From Patescibacteria group bacterium (lineage in GTDB: Bacteria; Patescibacteriota; Patescibacteriia; CAIXNZ01): DNA of 64,000 bases. The DNA lies in the NCBI GenBank assembly GCA_041651155.1, contig JBAZJU010000001.1, positions 167,619 to 231,618 on the forward strand. Reading direction: 5' to 3'. The notes under the pieces are model-generated. The model saw nothing but the letters and a program-made list of their open reading frames with translations. It was not told where the DNA came from and searched no databases. This document shows, one piece after another, positions 2,447 through 44,528 of this stretch. Numbering within the stretch: the first letter of the stretch is position 1; every line of letters begins with the position of its first letter. The position numbers and the translations under genes were made by a program.

Positions 2447-2884
2447 ATGACAGAGAAAAAATATCCTAAAGTGGGCATTGGCGTGATGATCCAAAATGAA
2501 AATGGCCAGGTTCTGCTTGGTTTAAGAAAGGGTTCTCATGGAGAAGGTGAATGGAATTTTCCAGGCGGACATTTGGAATTTGGGGAAACTGTTTTTGAAA
2601 CAGCTGCCAGGGAAACAAAAGAGGAAACCGGTTTAGATGTTGATCCTTTTGCTTTAATTTCTGTGGCTGATGAAATGCGCTATATTGAATCTGATGACAA
2701 ACATTTTTTAAATATAGGTGTCAAGGCAAATTATAAAGGCGGCGATCCAGTTGTAATGGAGCCGAATAAATGCGAAAAATGGCAATGGTTTGATTTAGAC
2801 AATTTGCCTGACAAAATATTAGATGGTACGTCCCAGATTATTCAAAATTTTAAAGCCAAAAGAATTTATAAACCGGCAAGATAA
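2447..2884 (+). CDS. NUDIX hydrolase
   Basis: Nudix box GGHLEFGETVFETAARETKEETGL. Confidence 0.85.
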   Translation: MTEKKYPKVGIGVMIQNENGQVLLGLRKGSHGEGEWNFPGGHLEFGETVFETAARETKEETGLDVDPFALISVADEMRYIESDDKHFLNIGVKANYKGGDPVVMEPNKCEKWQWFDLDNLPDKILDGTSQIIQNFKAKRIYKPAR

Positions 2885-2887
2885 TTT

Positions 2888-3346
2888 ATGATAATTACTA
2901 TCTGTTCCACAATTAAATTCTGGCCCCAGATTTTGGAAGTTAAAAAACAGCTGGAAGATATGGGTCATGAAGTTTTAATCCCGCCTCATGAGGTGAAAAA
3001 TGAAACGGGTGATTTTATTCCCGTTGAAGAATATTATAAAATCCGCAGAGAAATGATGGCTAAAGATGGCCAAGAACACGATTGGATTTGGCAGCGTAAA
3101 AAAGAGGCCATCAATTGTCATTTTGCCAAAGTAGACAAGGCTGACGCTGTTTTAATTTTGAATTATGAGAAAAATGGGATTGACAATTACATCGGCGGCA
3201 ATACTTTTTTAGAAATGGGTTTGGCCTTTTGGCTTAATAAACCAATTTATTTAATCAATCCAATCCCCACGGAATTAAGCTACACCGAAGAAATAAAAGG
3301 CATGCAGCCGATTGTGATTAATGGGGATTTAAATTTGATAAAATAA
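2888..3346 (+). CDS. hypothetical protein (possibly nucleoside 2-deoxyribosyltransferase-like fold)
   Basis: Only a weak resemblance; assignment tentative. Confidence 0.3.
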   Translation: MIITICSTIKFWPQILEVKKQLEDMGHEVLIPPHEVKNETGDFIPVEEYYKIRREMMAKDGQEHDWIWQRKKEAINCHFAKVDKADAVLILNYEKNGIDNYIGGNTFLEMGLAFWLNKPIYLINPIPTELSYTEEIKGMQPIVINGDLNLIK

Positions 3347-3351
3347 TTTAT

Positions 3352-3439
3352 GCCCTGCTTTCCTGTCCGCTCGCCTCGGCGAAGCGGGCCAAAGCTTTTG
3401 CGACGGCGGAAGCAGGCTACTTGCCCACTGAAGTGGGGT
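3352..3439 (+). repeat. partial copy (GC-rich core plus cccact..gtggg hairpin) of the structured repeat family seen at 35401-35665 and 36755-37017
   Basis: Shares ctttcctgtccgctcgcctcggcgaagcgggccaaagc..gcgacggcggaag. Closing helix is cctgctttcc/ggaagcagg, which covaries against the other copies. Confidence 0.7.
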
Positions 3440-3452
3440 GTAAAGATATATT

Positions 3453-4115
3453 ATGATAATTTTAAGGCCATTAATTAATAAGATTGAACTTGAAGCGAAA
3501 AAGTACTTTAATAAAGCCAGCGGCTGTCATGATTGGACTCATGTTGAGCGGGTGAGAAATTTAGCTTTACATATCGGTCAAAAAGAAAAAGCTAATTTGG
3601 GCATAATTGAACTCGCAGCCTTACTCCATGATATTGCCAGGAAAGCTGAAATGGATTCTAAGGGTAAATTATGCCATGCCAAACAGGGCGCAAAATTGGC
3701 CAAAAAGATTTTACAGAAATATAAAATTAATCCAAAAATTATTGAGGCGGTTGTGCATTGTATTGCAACTCATCGTTTTCGCAACAATAACCGACCCAAA
3801 ACAATTGAAGCTAAATGTCTATTTGACGCAGACAAATTAGATTCCATAGGCGCTATAGGAATAGGGAGGACTTTTCTTTTTGCCGGCTATCATAAGGTGG
3901 CGCTTTATACTGGCAAAGAAAAATATTATGCCAAAAAAGGGATTGACCGTTCGTACACTGAAGATGATTCCGGCATTATGGAATATGAATTTAAGCTGAA
4001 AAAAATTAAAAATAAGATATTAACTAAAGCAGGTAAAAAATTTGCCCAAGAACGGCACCAATACATGGTTGAATTTTTTAACCGTTTTTGGCAGGAAGTT
4101 AAAGGTTTGAAGTAA
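3453..4115 (+). CDS. HD-domain phosphohydrolase
   Basis: HDWTHVERV .. LLHDIAR HD motifs. Confidence 0.75.
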   Translation: MIILRPLINKIELEAKKYFNKASGCHDWTHVERVRNLALHIGQKEKANLGIIELAALLHDIARKAEMDSKGKLCHAKQGAKLAKKILQKYKINPKIIEAVVHCIATHRFRNNNRPKTIEAKCLFDADKLDSIGAIGIGRTFLFAGYHKVALYTGKEKYYAKKGIDRSYTEDDSGIMEYEFKLKKIKNKILTKAGKKFAQERHQYMVEFFNRFWQEVKGLK

Positions 4116-4119
4116 AAAT

Positions 4120-5133
4120 ATGAGATTATTAGTCACCGGCGGAGCCGGGTTTATTGGCTCCAATTTTATTCGCTACTGGTTAAATAAATATCCAGAGGAT
4201 TTTATAGTTAATCTGGATAAGCTGACTTATGCCGGCAATTTGGAAAATTTGAAAGATATTGAAAGTAATCCCAATTATAAATTTGTTAAAGGCGATATTG
4301 GGGATTTAGAAAAAAATAAGAAATTACTTAAGGAGGAGAAAATTAATGTGATTGTTAATTTTGCTGCTGAATCGCATAATGGCAGAGCAATGGTTGAACC
4401 AGATATCTTCGTGAAAACCAATGTCTTGGGCACGCAAATGCTATTGGAAGCTGCTAAAGATGCGGGTATTGATCGTTTTCATCATATTTCAACTTGTGAG
4501 GTGTTTGGCGATTTAGCATTAGATGAAAAACGGGCGTTTAAAGAAACTGATCCATATTTGCCCAAAACTCCTTACAATGCTTCTAAAGCCGCAGCTAATC
4601 ACGAAGTTATGGCGTATTATCATACTTTTAAATTGCCCGTGACAATCAGCCATTGTTCAAATAATTATGGTCCATACCAATTCCCGGAAAAAGTTATTCC
4701 ACGATTTATTACCAATGCGTTGCAGGATCAAGAATTGCCTTTATTTAAAAGTAGTTTGAATAAAAGGGAATGGTTGCATGTCTTGGATCACTGTCAGGCT
4801 ATTGATTTAATTATAAAAAAAGGCAAAGTGGGGGAGGCCTATAATATAGGTAGCGGGATTGAAAAAAACATAGAAGAAATAGCAGATGCTGTTTTAAGGC
4901 GTTTAAATAAACCCGAAACTTTGAAAGTTTATGTTGAAGACAGGCCAGGACATGATCGACGTTATTTGCTAGATACCGCGAAAATTCAAGCCGAATTAGG
5001 TTGGCGGTCGGAAATTGAATTTGAAGCAGGTATTGACGAAGTTGTTGATTGGTATGTAAAAAATGAAAAGTGGTGGAGGCCATTACTGGGGAAGGGATTT
5101 GTTGAAAATTATAAAAAACAATACCTTAATTGA
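4120..5133 (+). CDS. rfbB: dTDP-glucose 4,6-dehydratase
   Basis: LVTGGAGFIGSNF Rossmann motif; YxxxK; full-length similarity pattern of RfbB. Confidence 0.9.
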   Translation: MRLLVTGGAGFIGSNFIRYWLNKYPEDFIVNLDKLTYAGNLENLKDIESNPNYKFVKGDIGDLEKNKKLLKEEKINVIVNFAAESHNGRAMVEPDIFVKTNVLGTQMLLEAAKDAGIDRFHHISTCEVFGDLALDEKRAFKETDPYLPKTPYNASKAAANHEVMAYYHTFKLPVTISHCSNNYGPYQFPEKVIPRFITNALQDQELPLFKSSLNKREWLHVLDHCQAIDLIIKKGKVGEAYNIGSGIEKNIEEIADAVLRRLNKPETLKVYVEDRPGHDRRYLLDTAKIQAELGWRSEIEFEAGIDEVVDWYVKNEKWWRPLLGKGFVENYKKQYLN

Positions 5134-11769: not shown

Positions 11770-12906
11770 TTAGAGGGTAATGGGTGTACCGCGAGTGTCT
11801 CCTCCCTGGTTGACACAGTTCGAGGTAGTGTTGATACCCTGGATTTCCATTCCTATCCAGTAATCAGCACCAATCGTGAAGTCAATGTAGTGTACGAGCT
11901 GGGTCGTGCAGAGAGTTGATCCTCCGGTTGAGGCTATCACATCTGCATAGACGCCGTAGCCATGTTCATAAGTTCCTGGAGGAGCAGTTACATCGCGGGC
12001 CGGATGGTGGATAGTCAGCCATGCGCTTTGTCCGCTCAGCACAGAAAAGAAGGTTTCGGAATAGGAGAGAGTCGGTACATCCCATAAGAGCCTTTGCCAT
12101 ATGCCGCCGGGCGTGGGTGTCCTCCAGTACGAAGTCTGAATTCGGATGTCTTCACCAGCTTGCAACCCTGTATACGGTATGATGGGATCATCGAAAGTGA
12201 GAGGGTCATAGACATTATTGCCATTGGTATCGCCAGTCACTCGGACTCGCAAACGATAAAGCGTTTCAGTGCAGGTCGGATTGCTGCCCACGGTAACCGC
12301 ATTGTTTTCGTCTACGTTTATGATAAAACACGCTACGGGATATTGGTCTAGCGCAGTCCCTAAGGTTTTATACCCTGTAAGCAAAACCGAGTTAAGCCTG
12401 ATATTGTCAACCCGATTCTGGTTGGCGAGACTGTATCCGATTGACAGGTAGGTGTTTTTCGGCACGGTAATGGAGACACTGAGTACTCCACCTACGACTT
12501 GTGCGGAATAATTGATGCCGTGCATCGGGTCCGTATTCTGTCTGTTTACAATGCTTGAGTAAATGTAGATCTCTGCGGGAGGCGAGCCTGGCGTTACCAA
12601 ATTGGCACTGTATTTCTGGATTGTTTCCTTGTAAGTCTTTCCGTTGATAACCACATTTTTTACCGCAACAGTGCCATCGTCGACCAACTTGGAGGTTAAG
12701 GTAGATCCCTCAGGAATCGGGATTTCGAATTTGACAGCGCATCCGCCGTTTGCGTCACAGGTAATCGGGGTCGGAGGGACTACGGGTGTGTCAAACGCAC
12801 CGACGCTGGGACTCGCCTGGTGGGTGCCGCAACCGAGCAAGCTTAGAAAGCCGAGGCTGAGCACTATCAAAATGATAGCCATCCAGTTAAAGGTTTTCCC
12901 TTTCAT
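11770..12906 (-). CDS. secreted lipoprotein, function unknown
   Basis: Shine-Dalgarno aaggaga precedes the ATG at 12906; signal peptide with LLGC lipobox. Confidence 0.45.
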   Translation of the reverse strand: MKGKTFNWMAIILIVLSLGFLSLLGCGTHQASPSVGAFDTPVVPPTPITCDANGGCAVKFEIPIPEGSTLTSKLVDDGTVAVKNVVINGKTYKETIQKYSANLVTPGSPPAEIYIYSSIVNRQNTDPMHGINYSAQVVGGVLSVSITVPKNTYLSIGYSLANQNRVDNIRLNSVLLTGYKTLGTALDQYPVACFIINVDENNAVTVGSNPTCTETLYRLRVRVTGDTNGNNVYDPLTFDDPIIPYTGLQAGEDIRIQTSYWRTPTPGGIWQRLLWDVPTLSYSETFFSVLSGQSAWLTIHHPARDVTAPPGTYEHGYGVYADVIASTGGSTLCTTQLVHYIDFTIGADYWIGMEIQGINTTSNCVNQGGDTRGTPITL

Positions 12907-13246
12907 TTCTTCTCTCCTTTTGGGTATTTTTAGCCTGACCAAGCTTGCTACTGCGAAGCTTTAGCCATGACTTTTATCTCGTTGGTTTTTCGGTTGACCT
13001 TTTCCCTTGATTTTTTGCTATTTTAAATCAATTTATAAAAAGAACATCAAAGCAACTGCCAATTATTTGGTCAGGTGCTCTTAAAGATTATCTCACATTA
13101 ACATAACTGTAAAATTTTGTCAAGGTCTCTTGTCAAGACTTGAAATTTAGGCGAATTTTAGAGGAAAAATTACAGGTTGACAAAATAATAAAATAATAGC
13201 CTTATTTTTTTTGTTTTTATTGTATTATCATGGTAAAATATAACGT

Positions 13247-35026: not shown

Positions 35027-35371
35027 ATGGAAGAAAAAGATTTAAAACAAATTAAAGAAGTTGTAGACCAATCTTTTGAAGATAAATTTGGTCAAATTTG
35101 GGATAAGAATCTCTCTCCTGCTTTAGACGTTGTTTGTGAGAGATTAGATAAGGTTGATCAAAGGTTAAATAGCGTAGAATCGCAAATGGTAACAAAGTCT
35201 TATCTGGATGACAAATTAGCAGATTTGGAAGGCGGGGTAATTTCTAAACTTAGGAAAGAAGATGAAAAGGTGAATAGAATAATTTCTTTATTGAAAAAGC
35301 ATAAAGTTGTGCCATCAGCAGATTTGGAAGATTTGGATAATTTGCAGATTTTTCCCAGAATTCAGGTTTAG
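35027..35371 (+). CDS. hypothetical coiled-coil protein
   Basis: ORF only. Confidence 0.3.
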   Translation: MEEKDLKQIKEVVDQSFEDKFGQIWDKNLSPALDVVCERLDKVDQRLNSVESQMVTKSYLDDKLADLEGGVISKLRKEDEKVNRIISLLKKHKVVPSADLEDLDNLQIFPRIQV

Positions 35372-35400
35372 AGTCTTTTGATTTAGGTTAAATTATAGTC

Positions 35401-35665
35401 GCCAGGCAATGGGCGATTTTTTGATTGGTAATGTGATTCTCCGACGAAGAAGCGATTGGCCAATCGCTCCTTCAATGCGGGGGAATTAATCAAAAAATCG
35501 CCTGTTAAAATTTATACCCCACTTTCTTGTCCGCTCGCCTCGGCGAAGCGGGCCAAAGCATAACGACAGCGGAAGTGGGTTTTTTATTTGGCCTGCTAAA
35601 GCAGTGTATAATTTTGTAAATAAAAAATCCTGAACCATATTGGGTCCAGGATATAAGAGCCGCGA
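35401..35665 (+). repeat. ~265-bp structured multi-hairpin element, copy 1 (candidate structured ncRNA / terminator-associated repeat)
   Basis: Nested long hairpin (caggcgattttttgattgg .. ccaatcaaaaaatcgcctg around the palindrome gaagaagcgattgg/ccaatcgcttcttc). GC-rich core gtccgctcgcctcggcgaagcgggccaaagc closed by cccacttt/aagtggg plus T-run; two further small hairpins follow. 90% identical to 36755-37017. Confidence 0.8.
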
Positions 35666-35693
35666 CAGGTACTTTGGCTCTATCTTAATTTTT

Positions 35694-35975
35694 TTACTTG
35701 TCGTAATAGCAGATATATGTGGCTGGTTCTGTTGCTTCGAAGATGATGGGATCGCCGACTTTGATATCACAGTCCTGGGATGAAATGGCGCGATATTCAG
35801 TGCCATTGATTGTGATTTTGTTGTGAATAACGGTAATACTTTCAGGGGCTTTGGCGATACCAAAATCGTATTTACCGGGAAGAACAACACCAATTGTTGC
35901 TTTTTTACCCAAGAAAGTGGTAAAGCCCAGCGATTGGACTTGTCCATCAAAGTAAGTATTGTGTTTGATTTCCAT
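35694..35975 (-). CDS. ppnP: pyrimidine/purine nucleoside phosphorylase PpnP (DUF1255 cupin)
   Basis: MEIKHNTYFDGQVQSLGF..GVVLPGKYDFG..YICYY aligns along its length with E. coli YaiE/PpnP. Confidence 0.8.
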   Translation of the reverse strand: MEIKHNTYFDGQVQSLGFTTFLGKKATIGVVLPGKYDFGIAKAPESITVIHNKITINGTEYRAISSQDCDIKVGDPIIFEATEPATYICYYDK

Positions 35976-35986
35976 TCAATCCTCCT

Positions 35987-36343
35987 TTACTTATTATCAA
36001 GATATTTCTTGGCCAGCATTGCCCAGGTCGGATCGCCATAACGAATGATTTTCTCAACTTGCGGCGCCCAGTATTCTAGGCGCATGCGGTAAGGTTCATG
36101 GGTTAAATTATATCCGATTTGGAGCTGTAGCTCGCATTTTTTGGGATTATTGGTCTCACACCAGATATTATAGACGACCATTAATCGGCCGTCTTTTAGC
36201 TGGATAAAATCGCTTTTTTGGACTGAAGCGAGCTCCTTAATAAGGCTCGGATCATATGTGGCTTGACCCTGGCTGTTGCAGCCAACAAGCATACACAGAA
36301 ACAGGGAAAAGATTATTACTGACAAGAGACATCTTTTTTCCAT
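35987..36343 (-). CDS. lipoprotein, unknown function
   Basis: Signal peptide with LVGC lipobox. Confidence 0.45.
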   Translation of the reverse strand: MEKRCLLSVIIFSLFLCMLVGCNSQGQATYDPSLIKELASVQKSDFIQLKDGRLMVVYNIWCETNNPKKCELQLQIGYNLTHEPYRMRLEYWAPQVEKIIRYGDPTWAMLAKKYLDNK

Positions 36344-36367
36344 CTTTTTCTCCTTTCAAAGTTCTTG

Positions 36368-36604
36368 TTATGGTTTTTTGTAAAACCATTGGTAAATACC
36401 GTAAATCCAGCTGCCAGTGTAAACCACATTCATTAACATTATGCCCCATTGATGATTATGATACGTGGTTATGTACCAGAAGGGTTGCGAGGCTAAACCG
36501 CAAACAAAACCCCACTTGTTTTTTCGGGAAATGAGAATTATTGCCAAGATGCCAAAGATACAGATGGCTATTTGGCTTATATTTTCCCAATTAAGATATT
36601 GCAT
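36368..36604 (-). pseudogene. truncated PnuC-like nicotinamide riboside transporter fragment (78 aa; full PnuC is ~190-230 aa)
   Basis: ISRKNKWGFVCGL..WYITTY resembles the PnuC N-terminal helices; the ORF ends after ~2 TM helices. Confidence 0.4.
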
Positions 36605-36754
36605 TTTTAAAGAACCTCCTTGTAGTTTGCCTTAATTTAAGCGCAGATTAGAGATTTTGTCAACCCAGTCTTAATAGTTCAATAGCTTGGAAACGTTTAT
36701 GATAAGATAAAATGGCTACAATTAAAAGTTTTATGAAAGATTAAGTGAAATTTC

Positions 36755-37017
36755 GCCTAGACAGGCGATTTTTTGATTGGCATTTTTTTGACCCGACGAA
36801 GAAGCGATTGCCAATCGCTTCTTCAATGTGGGGGAATTAATCAAAAAATCGCCTGCCAAATTTATGTCCCACTTTCTTGTCCGCTCGCCTCGGCGAAGCG
36901 GGCCAAAGCATAGCGACGGCGGAAGTGAGCTTTTTTATTTGGCCTGCTAAAGCAGGGTATAAATTTTTAAATAAAAAATCCCGAACCACATTGGGTCCAG
37001 GATATAGAGTTGCGGAA
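36755..37017 (+). repeat. ~265-bp structured multi-hairpin element, copy 2
   Basis: Same architecture as 35401-35665; the inner palindrome is perfect here. Confidence 0.8.
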
Positions 37018-37042
37018 AGTCAGCGGTTTTTAGACGGCTGAT

Positions 37043-37324
37043 TCAGTCATGGATTTTATATCTCATGGCATTTCTCTGATCAACAATTTCTCTGATGATA
37101 AGGTAGATCCAAATCATGACTGTGTTGAGGCAAAAGCAAATCAAGATTTGGACATTCGTCCAATTGCCACTTTTTGATAAGTGGTCCATAAGTACTTGAA
37201 TGGTAGTGAATATTAGACCACCCGAAATGGCAACCACGAAGGTTAGAAGAACGATTTTAATGTAGTTAATTTTGTCTTTCATGTCTTTCCTCCTTTGTTT
37301 GGGGCTATATGATATATTTATCAT
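37043..37324 (-). CDS. small membrane protein
   Basis: ORF with TM helices. Confidence 0.3.
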   Translation of the reverse strand: MINISYSPKQRRKDMKDKINYIKIVLLTFVVAISGGLIFTTIQVLMDHLSKSGNWTNVQILICFCLNTVMIWIYLIIREIVDQRNAMRYKIHD

Positions 37325-37414
37325 ATTTTATTCAATCTGTCAATGGTTGGCGAAAATGGAAATTTTTGTTAAAATAATAGTAAGATTAAGAATAAAGAAA
37401 ATACAATTAAGAAT

Positions 37415-44384: not shown

Positions 44385-44528
44385 TGCTCCTGAAGGGAAT
44401 TGAACCCCCATCTCCAATTGTTTGAATTCCTTTTGTTTAGCCTATGTACACTTAGCTAAGCCGGGATCAAACAATCTCCCAGTTGGGAGGCGTGCCTAGC
44501 CGTTGTTTTGCCATTAAACTACAAGAGC
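44385..44528 (-). ncRNA. 144-nt tRNA-like gene: intact acceptor stem, D-arm and T-arm, anticodon arm replaced by ~85 nt folding into two hairpins
   Basis: 5' GCTCTTG-TA-GTTT-AATGGCA-AAAC .. 3' GGGGG-TTCAATT-CCCTT-CAGGAGC-A. Insert hairpins: ctccc-aact-gggag, and ttgtttga..tcaaacaa enclosing ttagc..gctaa. No canonical anticodon stem-loop found. Confidence 0.4.

What the first reader, a model, noticed from the sequence alone, without database searches (positions are those of the whole stretch)
35666..36754. ppnP / lipoprotein / truncated pnuC segment bracketed by direct copies of the 265-bp structured element
The 1.1-kb segment between the two repeat copies carries three minus-strand genes: a nucleoside phosphorylase (ppnP), a lipoprotein, and a PnuC-like nicotinamide-riboside transporter fragment that stops after ~2 helices.
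Long direct repeats around a small gene set are the signature of a cassette gained, or about to be lost, by repeat-mediated recombination.
The pnuC truncation suggests recent decay.
It is a nucleoside/NAD-precursor salvage mini-locus, which would be an important function for an organism that probably cannot synthesise nucleotides de novo.
Basis: partly seen in the sequence, partly recalled or inferred. Interest (0 to 1): 0.5.

Follow-up and report, generated by a model that had tools for sequence, protein, structure and literature searches.

The report
Small operon between duplicated terminator hairpins
The repeats and the three genes are real, but comparison with related genomes shows no mobile cassette and no decaying gene: an ordinary small operon sits between two copies of a hairpin-rich terminator region, and its "truncated" transporter gene is an intact, strongly conserved three-helix half-size relative of PnuC.

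Summary
Observation confirmed. Two direct copies of a ~245-280 nt hairpin-rich element (35398-35679 and 36754-37029, 90% identical) flank three minus-strand genes: PpnP, a lipoprotein and a 78-aa PnuC-like protein.

Interpretation mostly not supported. In six related Patescibacteria loci the same ThiI-MurE interval carries different subsets of the three genes, so they do not travel as a unit. Relatives have at most one, differently composed, element copy downstream of ppnP. None has a full copy on the ThiI side. Copy B lies in a 674-bp segment (36664-37337, with an ORFan) that is absent from the closest relative and is bounded by a duplicated TGTCAA. The element is a mosaic of hairpins with opposed intrinsic-terminator-like ends, that is, the convergent terminator region between orf114 and ppnP, duplicated once locally.

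The pnuC "truncation" is refuted. All 11 close homologues are 75-90 aa, dN/dS is 0.03-0.14, and a profile finds 1,275 cluster representatives. Of the best 150, 121 are 120 aa or shorter. AlphaFold gives three helices (pLDDT 90). It is a stand-alone half-size PnuC-like protein, found next to nucleoside enzymes in several genomes and also present in phages.

Interest is modest. The possible natural "SemiPnu" is the only notable lead.

The parts
35027..35371 (+). orf114, a small coiled-coil-like protein gene whose 3' end abuts copy A
   Evidence: ORF. A 67%-identical homologue lies at the same place (between ppnP and MurE) in L024/L025, followed by the same H0/H1 hairpins. No Pfam family.
35398..35679 (.). 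Copy A of the hairpin mosaic, with modules H0-H1-H2-H3-H4. It is the convergent intergenic region between orf114 (+) and ppnP (-).
   Evidence: BLAST core 35412-35655; nhmmer 35398-35679; fold z -7.1. Relatives have related modules at this position (L015, L026, L024).
35397..35418 (+). H0: intrinsic-terminator-like hairpin plus T-run on the + strand, just after orf114. Its 3' arm is also the 5' arm of H1.
   Evidence: Terminator scan; more stable on + (-9.0 vs -6.9 kcal/mol).
35412..35506 (+). H1: 95-nt long imperfect hairpin
   Evidence: Self-inverted match. -43.0 kcal/mol on + vs -38.3 on -, because of G-U pairs.
35517..35590 (+). H2: an outer stem (CCCACTT/AAGTGGG) enclosing a GC-rich inner hairpin, followed by a T-run
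   Evidence: The partial third copy keeps the inner 32 nt exactly and changes the outer stem by two compensatory pairs, to CCTGCTT/AAGCAGG.
35627..35652 (-). H4: intrinsic terminator on the minus strand (10-bp stem plus TTTTTTATTT), downstream of ppnP
   Evidence: Terminator scan. -14.7 kcal/mol on - vs -11.8 on +. Conserved downstream of ppnP in L015/L016 (91%) and L026/L027.
35694..35975 (-). ppnP-family gene (pyrimidine/purine nucleoside phosphorylase family, 93 aa), last gene of the operon
   Evidence: Pfam PF06865 E 1e-13, full length. Orthologues in L015, L024 and L026 at 67-71% identity. dN/dS 0.10-0.21.
35987..36343 (-). Lipoprotein gene (118 aa), function unknown
36368..36604 (-). Mini-PnuC: intact 78-aa, three-helix PnuC-like membrane protein, first gene of the operon
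36634..36663 (-). Sigma-70-like promoter of the mini-PnuC operon (TTGACA, 18 nt, TAAATT)
   Evidence: 10 of 12 matches. Conserved with L015 upstream of its mini-PnuC.
36664..37337 (.). 674-bp segment (copy B plus orf93) absent from the closest relative. It is bounded by TGTCAA at 36658-36663 and 37338-37343.
   Evidence: The L015/L016/L017 sequence runs straight from the left junction to the right junction through a single TGTCAA.
36754..37029 (.). Copy B of the hairpin mosaic, same module order as copy A. It lies downstream of orf93 and upstream of the operon promoter.
   Evidence: Fold z -6.6. H4 of copy B at 36978-37003 is terminator-like on the minus strand (-14.0 vs -7.1 kcal/mol).
37043..37324 (-). 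orf93: ORFan small membrane protein. The likely start is at 37282 (79 aa), behind a GGAGG.
   Evidence: No homologue except itself among 5.8 billion proteins; NCBI annotates 48 aa. No counterpart in any syntenic locus.
3343..3449 (+). Partial third copy (module H2 and part of H3) in the 3' region of an unrelated gene
   Evidence: BLAST 87-90% over 68 nt; nhmmer E 5e-20; sequence.

Best explanation
The segment is a normal three-gene operon: mini-PnuC, then the lipoprotein, then PpnP. It is transcribed on the minus strand from a sigma-70-like promoter at 36663-36634 and ends at hairpins just after ppnP. It lies in a fast-changing patch of small genes between the housekeeping genes thiI and a Mur ligase gene.

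The 'structured element' is the convergent terminator region between orf114 and ppnP. It is a mosaic of hairpin modules with a plus-strand terminator-like hairpin at one end (H0) and a minus-strand intrinsic terminator at the other (H4). In this lineage the whole mosaic was copied once, 1.35 kb away, and now sits behind an ORFan (orf93) inside a 674-bp lineage-specific segment. So the two direct repeats are a by-product of a local duplication of a terminator region. They are not the ends of a cassette.

The 78-aa PnuC-like gene is complete. It is one triple-helix bundle, homologous to the N-terminal bundle of PnuC, and most likely works as a homodimer in the way SemiSWEETs do. Its substrate is possibly a nucleoside-like compound.

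Shown: the repeats; the gene identities; the promoter and terminator motifs; the strand bias of hairpin stability; the presence/absence pattern in relatives; the conserved length and purifying selection on mini-PnuC.

Inferred: the operon status; the direction of the duplication (B derived from A); dimerisation and transport by mini-PnuC.
For: Synteny.
- Six related loci share ThiI (70-93% aa identity) and, where the contig reaches it, the Mur ligase gene.
- L015/16/17: mini-PnuC, 72 aa, 103 aa, PpnP, 50 aa.
- L026/27: 50 aa, Lpp, PpnP.
- L024/25: Lpp, PpnP, orf114.
- L028: Lpp only.
- L001: mini-PnuC plus unrelated small genes.
- Only the window has all three genes.

Element in relatives.
- Modules of the element lie downstream of ppnP in L015, L026 and L024, with different inner modules.
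- H0/H1 follows orf114 in L024 just as it does in copy A. Copy A is therefore in its native context.
- No relative has a full copy on the ThiI side. L026 has only a short collapsed H2/H3-like fragment next to the thiI start.
- Copy B's segment is missing from the closest relative, at a clean junction.

Direction and age of the duplication.
- A and B are 90% identical over the whole composite, loops included. Orthologous elements in relatives share only single modules, and synonymous sites against L015 are near saturation (pS 0.72). The duplication therefore post-dates the split from L015.

Terminator character.
- The scan finds H0 (+) and H4 (-) in both copies: 9 sites found against 2.6 expected.
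- H4 is 3-7 kcal/mol more stable on the minus strand; H0 and H1 are more stable on the plus strand.

No mobility genes.
- No recombinase or transposase lies within about 5 kb. The neighbours are a P-type ATPase, a Mur ligase, ThiI, a bPH protein, DivIC, a SurA-like PPIase and an ABC ATPase.
- No GC anomaly.

Mini-PnuC.
Against: - Only 64 kb of a 348-kb contig could be read, so the genome-wide copy number of the element is unknown.
- The 6-bp TGTCAA at both junctions fits either an insertion in this lineage or a microhomology deletion in L015. The more distant L001 has a different small gene at that spot.
- Copy B's H0 has no plus-strand gene to terminate.
- Modules H1-H3 have no assigned role.
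- The two compensatory changes in H2's outer stem, and the exact conservation of its inner hairpin (also seen in two other Patescibacteria contigs), hint at a function beyond termination.
- No transcript data. Dimerisation and transport by mini-PnuC are untested.
Confidence: 0.7

Rival explanations
1. The three genes form a cassette that was gained, or is about to be lost, by recombination between the long direct repeats, and pnuC is a recently truncated, decaying gene.
For: Two 90%-identical direct repeats of about 245 nt really do flank the genes. Repeats of that length are adequate substrates for homologous recombination (general knowledge). The interval is variable among relatives.
Against: The genes occur at the same locus in relatives without a repeat pair and in different subsets. 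No relative shows an empty site with one repeat. Copy B is a later addition, absent from the closest relative. Mini-PnuC keeps its length in every homologue and has dN/dS 0.03-0.14. No recombinase is nearby.
Confidence: 0.07
2. The element is a small mobile non-autonomous repeat (MITE- or REP/BIME-like), and copy B arrived by transposition, possibly carrying orf93.
For: Module composition differs between genomes, as in mosaic REP/BIME elements. Module H2 occurs alone at 3343-3449. The inner GC hairpin occurs in other outer contexts in a Falkowbacteria genome and in a metagenome contig. Metagenome contigs of relatives break inside the element (L015, L016). A 6-bp TGTCAA duplication bounds the 674-bp segment.
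Against: The duplication bounds the 674-bp segment, not the element. The element ends have no terminal inverted repeats and no target duplication, and the flanks are unrelated. Only 2 full copies occur in 64 kb, and they are adjacent. The 26-nt core has one exact match in 241 million metagenome records and none in viral contigs. No transposase was seen.
Confidence: 0.13
3. The element encodes or contains a structured regulatory RNA (an sRNA or a 3'-UTR element) that acts on the flanking genes. The two copies would then give the operon a shared control.
For: Very stable folds (z about -7). Two compensatory pair changes in H2's outer stem, with the inner 32 nt invariant in three copies. H0 and H1 are mutually exclusive pairings of the same GGCGA-T6 segment, like a terminator/antiterminator pair.
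Against: No Rfam family reaches threshold even at E up to 5. No conserved promoter lies inside the element: a TGTTAAAAT in copy A is not kept in copy B. H1's interior and H2 are replaced by unrelated hairpins in relatives. Only three sequences support the covariation.
Confidence: 0.1
4. The short PnuC-like protein is not a transporter half. It is a small membrane protein with another role, for example holin-like in phages, or a lipid-linked sugar flippase or accessory subunit.
For: In viral contig L020 a 96-aa homologue (61% identity) overlaps the start of a Peptidase_M15_4 endolysin-type gene, which is a typical holin position. In L004 and L031 the gene ends glycosyltransferase clusters. The best PHROG match is a family with an 84-position profile and unknown function.
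Against: The Pfam PnuC model matches above its gathering score. The best structural matches in the viral library are PnuC-annotated proteins, both short and full length. The gene is adjacent to nucleoside enzymes in three or four independent contexts. The locus here is chromosomal and housekeeping, not prophage.
Confidence: 0.2

Closest known systems
PnuC nicotinamide riboside transporter (Pfam PF04973; structure 4QTN)
   Different: It is one third the size: three helices instead of 7-8, with no linker helix and no second bundle. It is below the NCBIfam PnuC equivalog cut-off (21.2 vs 42.45). No sequence-level hit to any PDB chain.
SemiSWEET half-transporters (3-TM proteins that dimerise to form the SWEET fold)
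   Same: Same logic. A protein of about 80 aa and three helices corresponds to one bundle of a 3+1+3 full-length relative. A 3-TM 'semiPnu' ancestor of PnuC has been proposed as hypothetical (PMC7162841, citing Jaehme et al. 2015).
   Different: No sequence membership: no MtN3/PQ-loop Pfam hit. PnuC and SWEET bundles have different helix connectivity (PMC7162841, PMC7176098). Dimerisation is not tested here.
REP/BIME-type mosaic intergenic palindromes and bidirectional intrinsic terminators of enterobacteria
   Same: Imperfect palindromes confined to intergenic 3' regions between convergent genes. The build is modular, with different module combinations at orthologous sites. The ends are terminator-like.
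   Different: The sequences are unrelated. Copy number appears low (2 full plus 1 partial in 64 kb). The organism is a Patescibacteria MAG. No associated transposase was examined.
PpnP/YaiE pyrimidine/purine nucleoside phosphorylase (PF06865)
   Same: Full-length Pfam match, E 1e-13, and the same size (93 aa).
   Different: Far below the NCBIfam equivalog cut-off (40.3 vs 143), so it is a distant member. Substrate range unknown.

Membership tests
PnuC / NMN_transporter (PF04973) | Sequence match to the family profile above the curated threshold | tested here: met
   38.3 bits against gathering score 27.3, E 1.7e-9. All 11 close homologues carry the same precomputed Pfam hit.
PnuC / NMN_transporter (PF04973) | Full architecture: 7-8 TM helices, two triple-helix bundles joined by a linker helix | tested here: not met
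   78 aa. Three helices in the AF2 model, pLDDT 90. The match covers only profile positions 4-68 of 175. Only 24 nt separate its stop from the next gene.
PnuC / NMN_transporter (PF04973) | Equivalog-level identity with characterised PnuC (TIGR01528) | tested here: not met
   21.2 bits against cut-off 42.45.
PnuC / NMN_transporter (PF04973) | Transport of nicotinamide riboside | not testable with these tools
   Needs uptake or complementation assays.
Pseudogene / recent truncation | Close relatives are full length, the missing part is detectable downstream, and constraint is relaxed | tested here: not met
   Homologues are 75-90 aa down to 62% identity. dN/dS 0.03-0.14. Of the best 150 of 1,275 profile hits, 121 are 120 aa or shorter and none shows a second bundle.
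SemiSWEET-like half-transporter (by analogy) | About 80-100 aa, three TM helices forming one triple-helix bundle | tested here: met
   AF2 helices 2-26, 31-49 (kinked at P41) and 53-75.
SemiSWEET-like half-transporter (by analogy) | Parallel homodimer that forms the translocation path | not testable with these tools
The positive charges on loop 1 and the C-terminus fit a single topology (inspection of the sequence).
Repeat-bounded mobile cassette / composite element | Flanking direct repeats | tested here: met
Repeat-bounded mobile cassette / composite element | The enclosed genes move as a unit, and relatives show an empty site with one repeat or the unit elsewhere | tested here: not met
   Relatives carry subsets of the genes at the same locus with one or no element copy.
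Repeat-bounded mobile cassette / composite element | Recombinase or transposase in or beside the unit | tested here: not met
   Pfam on all ORFs of 110 aa or more within about 5 kb gave only housekeeping families.
MITE | Terminal inverted repeats and a target-site duplication at the element ends | tested here: not met
   The flanks of the two copies are unrelated and lack a duplication. The TGTCAA duplication bounds the larger 674-bp segment.
REP/BIME-like mosaic palindromes | Intergenic imperfect palindromes in variable modular combinations | tested here: met
REP/BIME-like mosaic palindromes | Many dispersed copies per genome | tested here: inconclusive
   2 full copies and 1 partial copy in 64 kb. 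Contigs of relatives break in the element.
Intrinsic terminator | GC-rich stem-loop followed by a T-run, strand-specific, at the 3' end of a gene | tested here: met
   H4 on the minus strand after ppnP and after orf93. H0 on the plus strand after orf114.. Actual termination was not measured.
PpnP (PF06865) | Full-length profile match above threshold | tested here: met
   51.8 bits against 25, covering 2-92/92. The NCBIfam equivalog cut-off is not reached.
Bacterial lipoprotein | Signal peptide ending in a lipobox with an invariant Cys | tested here: met
   L-V-G-C at residues 19-22. The Cys is invariant in 8 homologues.

The most novel reading that the evidence does not exclude
The 78-aa protein is a natural 'SemiPnu': a stand-alone triple-helix bundle that homodimerises into a PnuC-like nucleoside or vitamin transporter. 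It would be widespread in ultra-small bacteria and phages, with at least 1,275 clusters at 50% identity. That would be the counterpart of SemiSWEET for the Pnu family. Such a form appears as a hypothetical ancestor in the one searchable paper that uses the term, and I found no description of a natural one.
Probability: 0.35. Interest if true: 0.6.

Novelty: new member of a known kind. Interest (0 to 1): 0.3.

Why it matters
For genome annotation the lesson is practical. Long direct repeats around a few genes need not mark a cassette, and a "truncated" transporter may be a complete half-size protein.

The one lead with wider reach is the short PnuC-like family. If these three-helix proteins dimerise into working transporters, they would be the missing stand-alone unit of the Pnu fold. 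That would bear on the unresolved debate about how PnuC and SWEET transporters arose (PMC7162841, PMC7176098). It would also point to how genome-reduced Patescibacteria and their phages take up nucleoside-type nutrients.

Short PnuC-like proteins are already present and so named in public databases. The novelty is therefore in the interpretation, not in their existence.

Tried and rejected
- Rfam, at gathering thresholds on the whole window and at E up to 5 on 35300-37100: only tRNAs and sub-threshold chance hits.
- Exact-pattern scans for the element's invariant core. Genome contigs gave 10 hits, 9 of them in high-GC genomes and therefore chance, and 1 in a Falkowbacteria genome in a different outer context. 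Metagenome contigs gave 1 hit. Viral contigs gave 0. The composite could therefore not be traced outside this lineage.
- Homology of the flanks beyond the repeat ends, to test whether a remnant of orf114 was copied along with copy B: none.
- Relationship of orf93 to the small membrane genes at the equivalent spot in relatives (L001 91 aa, L015 50 aa): none. orf93 has no homologue at all.
- Taxonomic spread of the short family: the cluster look-up returned almost no organism names. The AFDB50 library was unavailable.
- Literature: no paper in the searchable library describes a natural three-helix PnuC homologue. Jaehme et al. 2015 (TiBS) is not held.
- My guess that window ORF 2888-3346 is a nucleoside deoxyribosyltransferase was not confirmed by Pfam.
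Full report
1. WHAT IS THERE

The window comes from a low-GC (about 36%) Patescibacteria MAG. The exact 78-aa protein is in NCBI as 'MAG: nicotinamide mononucleotide transporter [Patescibacteria group bacterium]' on a 348-kb contig.

Two direct copies of a structured element are real. The BLAST core is 35412-35655 vs 36764-37006, 89.8% identical, E 2e-89. A profile extends them to 35398-35679 and 36754-37029. The flanks beyond those ends are unrelated.

Between the copies lie three closely spaced minus-strand genes:
- a PpnP-family gene (35694-35975; PF06865, E 1e-13);
- a lipoprotein gene (35987-36343; lipobox Cys invariant in 8 homologues);
- a 78-aa PnuC-like gene (36368-36604; PF04973, E 1.7e-9, N-terminal third of the profile).

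A TTGACA-18-TAAATT promoter-like site lies at 36663-36634. GGAGG-type ribosome-binding sites precede the first and third genes (GGAG before the lipoprotein gene), and the gaps between genes are 24 and 11 nt. I infer one operon.

2. ANATOMY OF THE REPEAT

Each copy is a chain of hairpins:
- H0 is a short hairpin plus T-run on the plus strand.
- H1 is a 95-nt imperfect hairpin. Its 5' arm is the 3' arm of H0, so the two pairings exclude each other.
- H2 is an outer stem enclosing a GC-rich inner hairpin, then a T-run.
- H3 is a small hairpin.
- H4 is a 10-bp stem plus TTTTTTATTT on the minus strand.

The terminator scan picks up H0 (+) and H4 (-) in both copies: 9 sites against 2.6 expected from shuffles. 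Because of G-U pairs, H4 is 3-7 kcal/mol more stable as minus-strand RNA, and H0/H1 are more stable as plus-strand RNA.

On the minus strand both copies sit at the 3' end of a transcription unit. Copy A follows ppnP and copy B follows orf93. On the plus strand copy A follows orf114.

The element therefore looks like a convergent, bidirectional terminator region with extra hairpins between the two terminators. Rfam has nothing for it.

The only other copy in the 64 kb is module H2 alone at 3343-3449. Its inner 32 nt are identical, and its outer stem differs by two compensatory pairs.

3. COMPARISON WITH RELATIVES (THE DECISIVE TEST)

Homologues of mini-PnuC and of the lipoprotein led to six syntenic loci that share ThiI and, where the contig reaches it, the Mur ligase gene. 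Ordered by ThiI identity to the window:
- L015/16/17 (93%): ThiI | mini-PnuC, 72 aa, Cys-rich 103 aa, PpnP, 50-aa membrane peptide | H4 plus a different GC hairpin plus an H1 arm, then the contig ends.
- L026/27 (89%): ThiI | 50-aa peptide, Lpp, PpnP | H4 plus another hairpin plus H1.
- L028 (88.5%): ThiI | Lpp and two tiny ORFs | MurE, no element.
- L024/25 (85%): ThiI | Lpp, PpnP | H0/H1 plus a GC hairpin | orf114 | MurE.
- L001 (70%): ThiI | 91 aa | mini-PnuC, 94 aa, Cys-rich 95 aa | MurE, no element.

This supports four conclusions:
(i) The three genes are gained and lost independently. Only the window has all three.
(ii) An element downstream of ppnP is old, but its module content differs from genome to genome.
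(iii) No relative has a full copy between ThiI and the operon.

4. ORIGIN OF COPY B

The L015 sequence runs without interruption from the window's left junction to its right junction through a single TGTCAA. The window has TGTCAA at 36658-36663 and again at 37338-37343, with 674 bp between them holding copy B and orf93. TGTCAA is the reverse complement of the TTGACA -35 box, so each minus-strand unit has one.

orf93 has no homologue anywhere.

In copy A the modules are in their native contexts. H0/H1 follows orf114 as in L024, and H4 follows ppnP as in L015 and L026. In copy B, H0 has nothing to terminate.

A and B are 90% identical along the whole composite. Orthologous elements share only single modules, and synonymous sites between the window and L015 are nearly saturated (pS 0.72).

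I conclude that B is a copy of A made after the split from L015. The mechanism is unknown. A 6-bp microhomology fits either an illegitimate insertion here or, less likely given the argument above, a deletion in L015.

No recombinase or transposase lies within about 5 kb, and base composition is unremarkable.

5. THE 'TRUNCATED' pnuC

All 11 close homologues are 75-90 aa, with 25 invariant columns (KNKWGF, SQPFW and others). dN/dS against five relatives is 0.03-0.14 where synonymous sites are not saturated. That is lower than for ppnP (0.10-0.21) or the lipoprotein (about 0.15).

A profile search of 1.84 billion cluster representatives finds 1,275 hits at E <= 1e-3 and 285 at E <= 1e-10. Among the best 150 the median length is 90 aa and 121 are 120 aa or shorter. 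The longer ones add soluble tails, not a second bundle.

The gene is therefore intact and belongs to a large family of stand-alone single-bundle PnuC-like proteins.

By analogy with SemiSWEET and SWEET, and with PnuC's 3+1+3 build (PMC7162841), a parallel homodimer is the most economical mechanism. This is inference only.

Genomic contexts are mixed:
- PpnP (window, L015);
- a nucleoside 2-deoxyribosyltransferase overlapping the 3' end of the gene (L030);
- NUDIX (L004);
- glycosyltransferase clusters (L004, L031);
- phage replication genes (L021);
- a holin-like position in front of an M15 peptidase (L020).

A nucleoside-related substrate is plausible but not established.

6. COMPARISON WITH WHAT IS KNOWN

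In the searchable literature a 3-TM 'semiPnu' appears only as a hypothetical ancestor (PMC7162841, citing Jaehme et al. 2015, which is not held). The PnuC-SWEET relationship is described as unresolved (PMC7176098). No paper I could search describes natural three-helix PnuC homologues.

Databases already hold such proteins and label them PnuC or PnuC-like, and PHROGs has a family with an 84-position profile and unknown function. Their existence is therefore not new. Reading them as half-transporters may be.

The repeat resembles REP/BIME-type mosaics and bidirectional terminators in behaviour, but not in sequence.

7. VERDICT

The cassette and decay interpretations are rejected. The salvage-locus idea is partly supported.

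The finding resolves to an ordinary operon in a variable small-gene patch, flanked by a locally duplicated terminator mosaic. The side lead is the half-size PnuC-like family.

Overall interest is 0.3.

Noticed in passing
window 44385-44528 (-): The Rfam tRNA model matches at 39 bits over 144 nt, with full model coverage, but ARAGORN does not call it. The sequence looks like a tRNA with an insertion of about 70 nt before the T-arm. It may be an intron-containing or otherwise interrupted tRNA gene.
   Followed up: partly
L020 875-1490 (IMG/VR viral contig): A 96-aa homologue of the short PnuC-like protein (61% identity) overlaps the start of a Peptidase_M15_4 (endolysin-type) gene. That is the classic position of a holin.
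   Followed up: partly
L030 4001-4736 (842-kb metagenome contig); L004 5891-6609; L031 3001-3324: Short PnuC-like genes lie directly beside a nucleoside 2-deoxyribosyltransferase (L030) and a NUDIX hydrolase (L004), and at the end of glycosyltransferase clusters (L004, L031).
   Followed up: partly
window 3343-3449; L012 6947-6983; L019 860-890: The inner GC-rich hairpin of module H2 (CCGCTCGCCTCGGCGAAGCGGGCCAA) recurs inside different outer sequences: at a third site in the window, in a Falkowbacteria genome, and just 3' of a tRNA gene in a metagenome contig. This suggests a small hairpin unit that nests into other hairpins.
   Followed up: partly
L026 3487-3535: A collapsed version of H2's outer stem plus H3 (CCCCACTTTAGTGGG-CCTGCTAAAGCAGG) lies immediately upstream of the thiI start codon in a relative. 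The window has nothing there.
   Followed up: no
window 36632-36663; L015 ~1281-1312; L026 ~4727-4760: The same promoter-plus-leader sequence (TTGACA, then ...GCGCTTAAATTAAGG) precedes mini-PnuC in the window and in L015. In L026 it precedes an unrelated 144-aa gene downstream of the element.
   Followed up: no
window 37043-37324 (-): orf93 is an ORFan two-helix membrane protein. Its only match among 5.8 billion proteins is itself, and NCBI annotates it as a 48-aa hypothetical protein (WC460_01090). Different, unrelated small membrane-protein genes occupy the equivalent place in relatives (L001 91 aa; L015/L026 50 aa).
   Followed up: yes
L019 650-830: A tRNA gene is preceded by a partial duplicate of its own 5' end, interrupted by a hairpin-like insertion.
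   Followed up: no
window 12001-13000: Local GC peak of 0.49 against a background of about 0.36. No Rfam family was reported there.
   Followed up: no
window 2447-4115: A NUDIX gene (2447-2884), a 152-aa ORF without a family (2888-3346) and an HD-domain phosphohydrolase (3453-4115) form a possible second nucleotide-related cluster. The partial element copy lies between the last two.
   Followed up: partly
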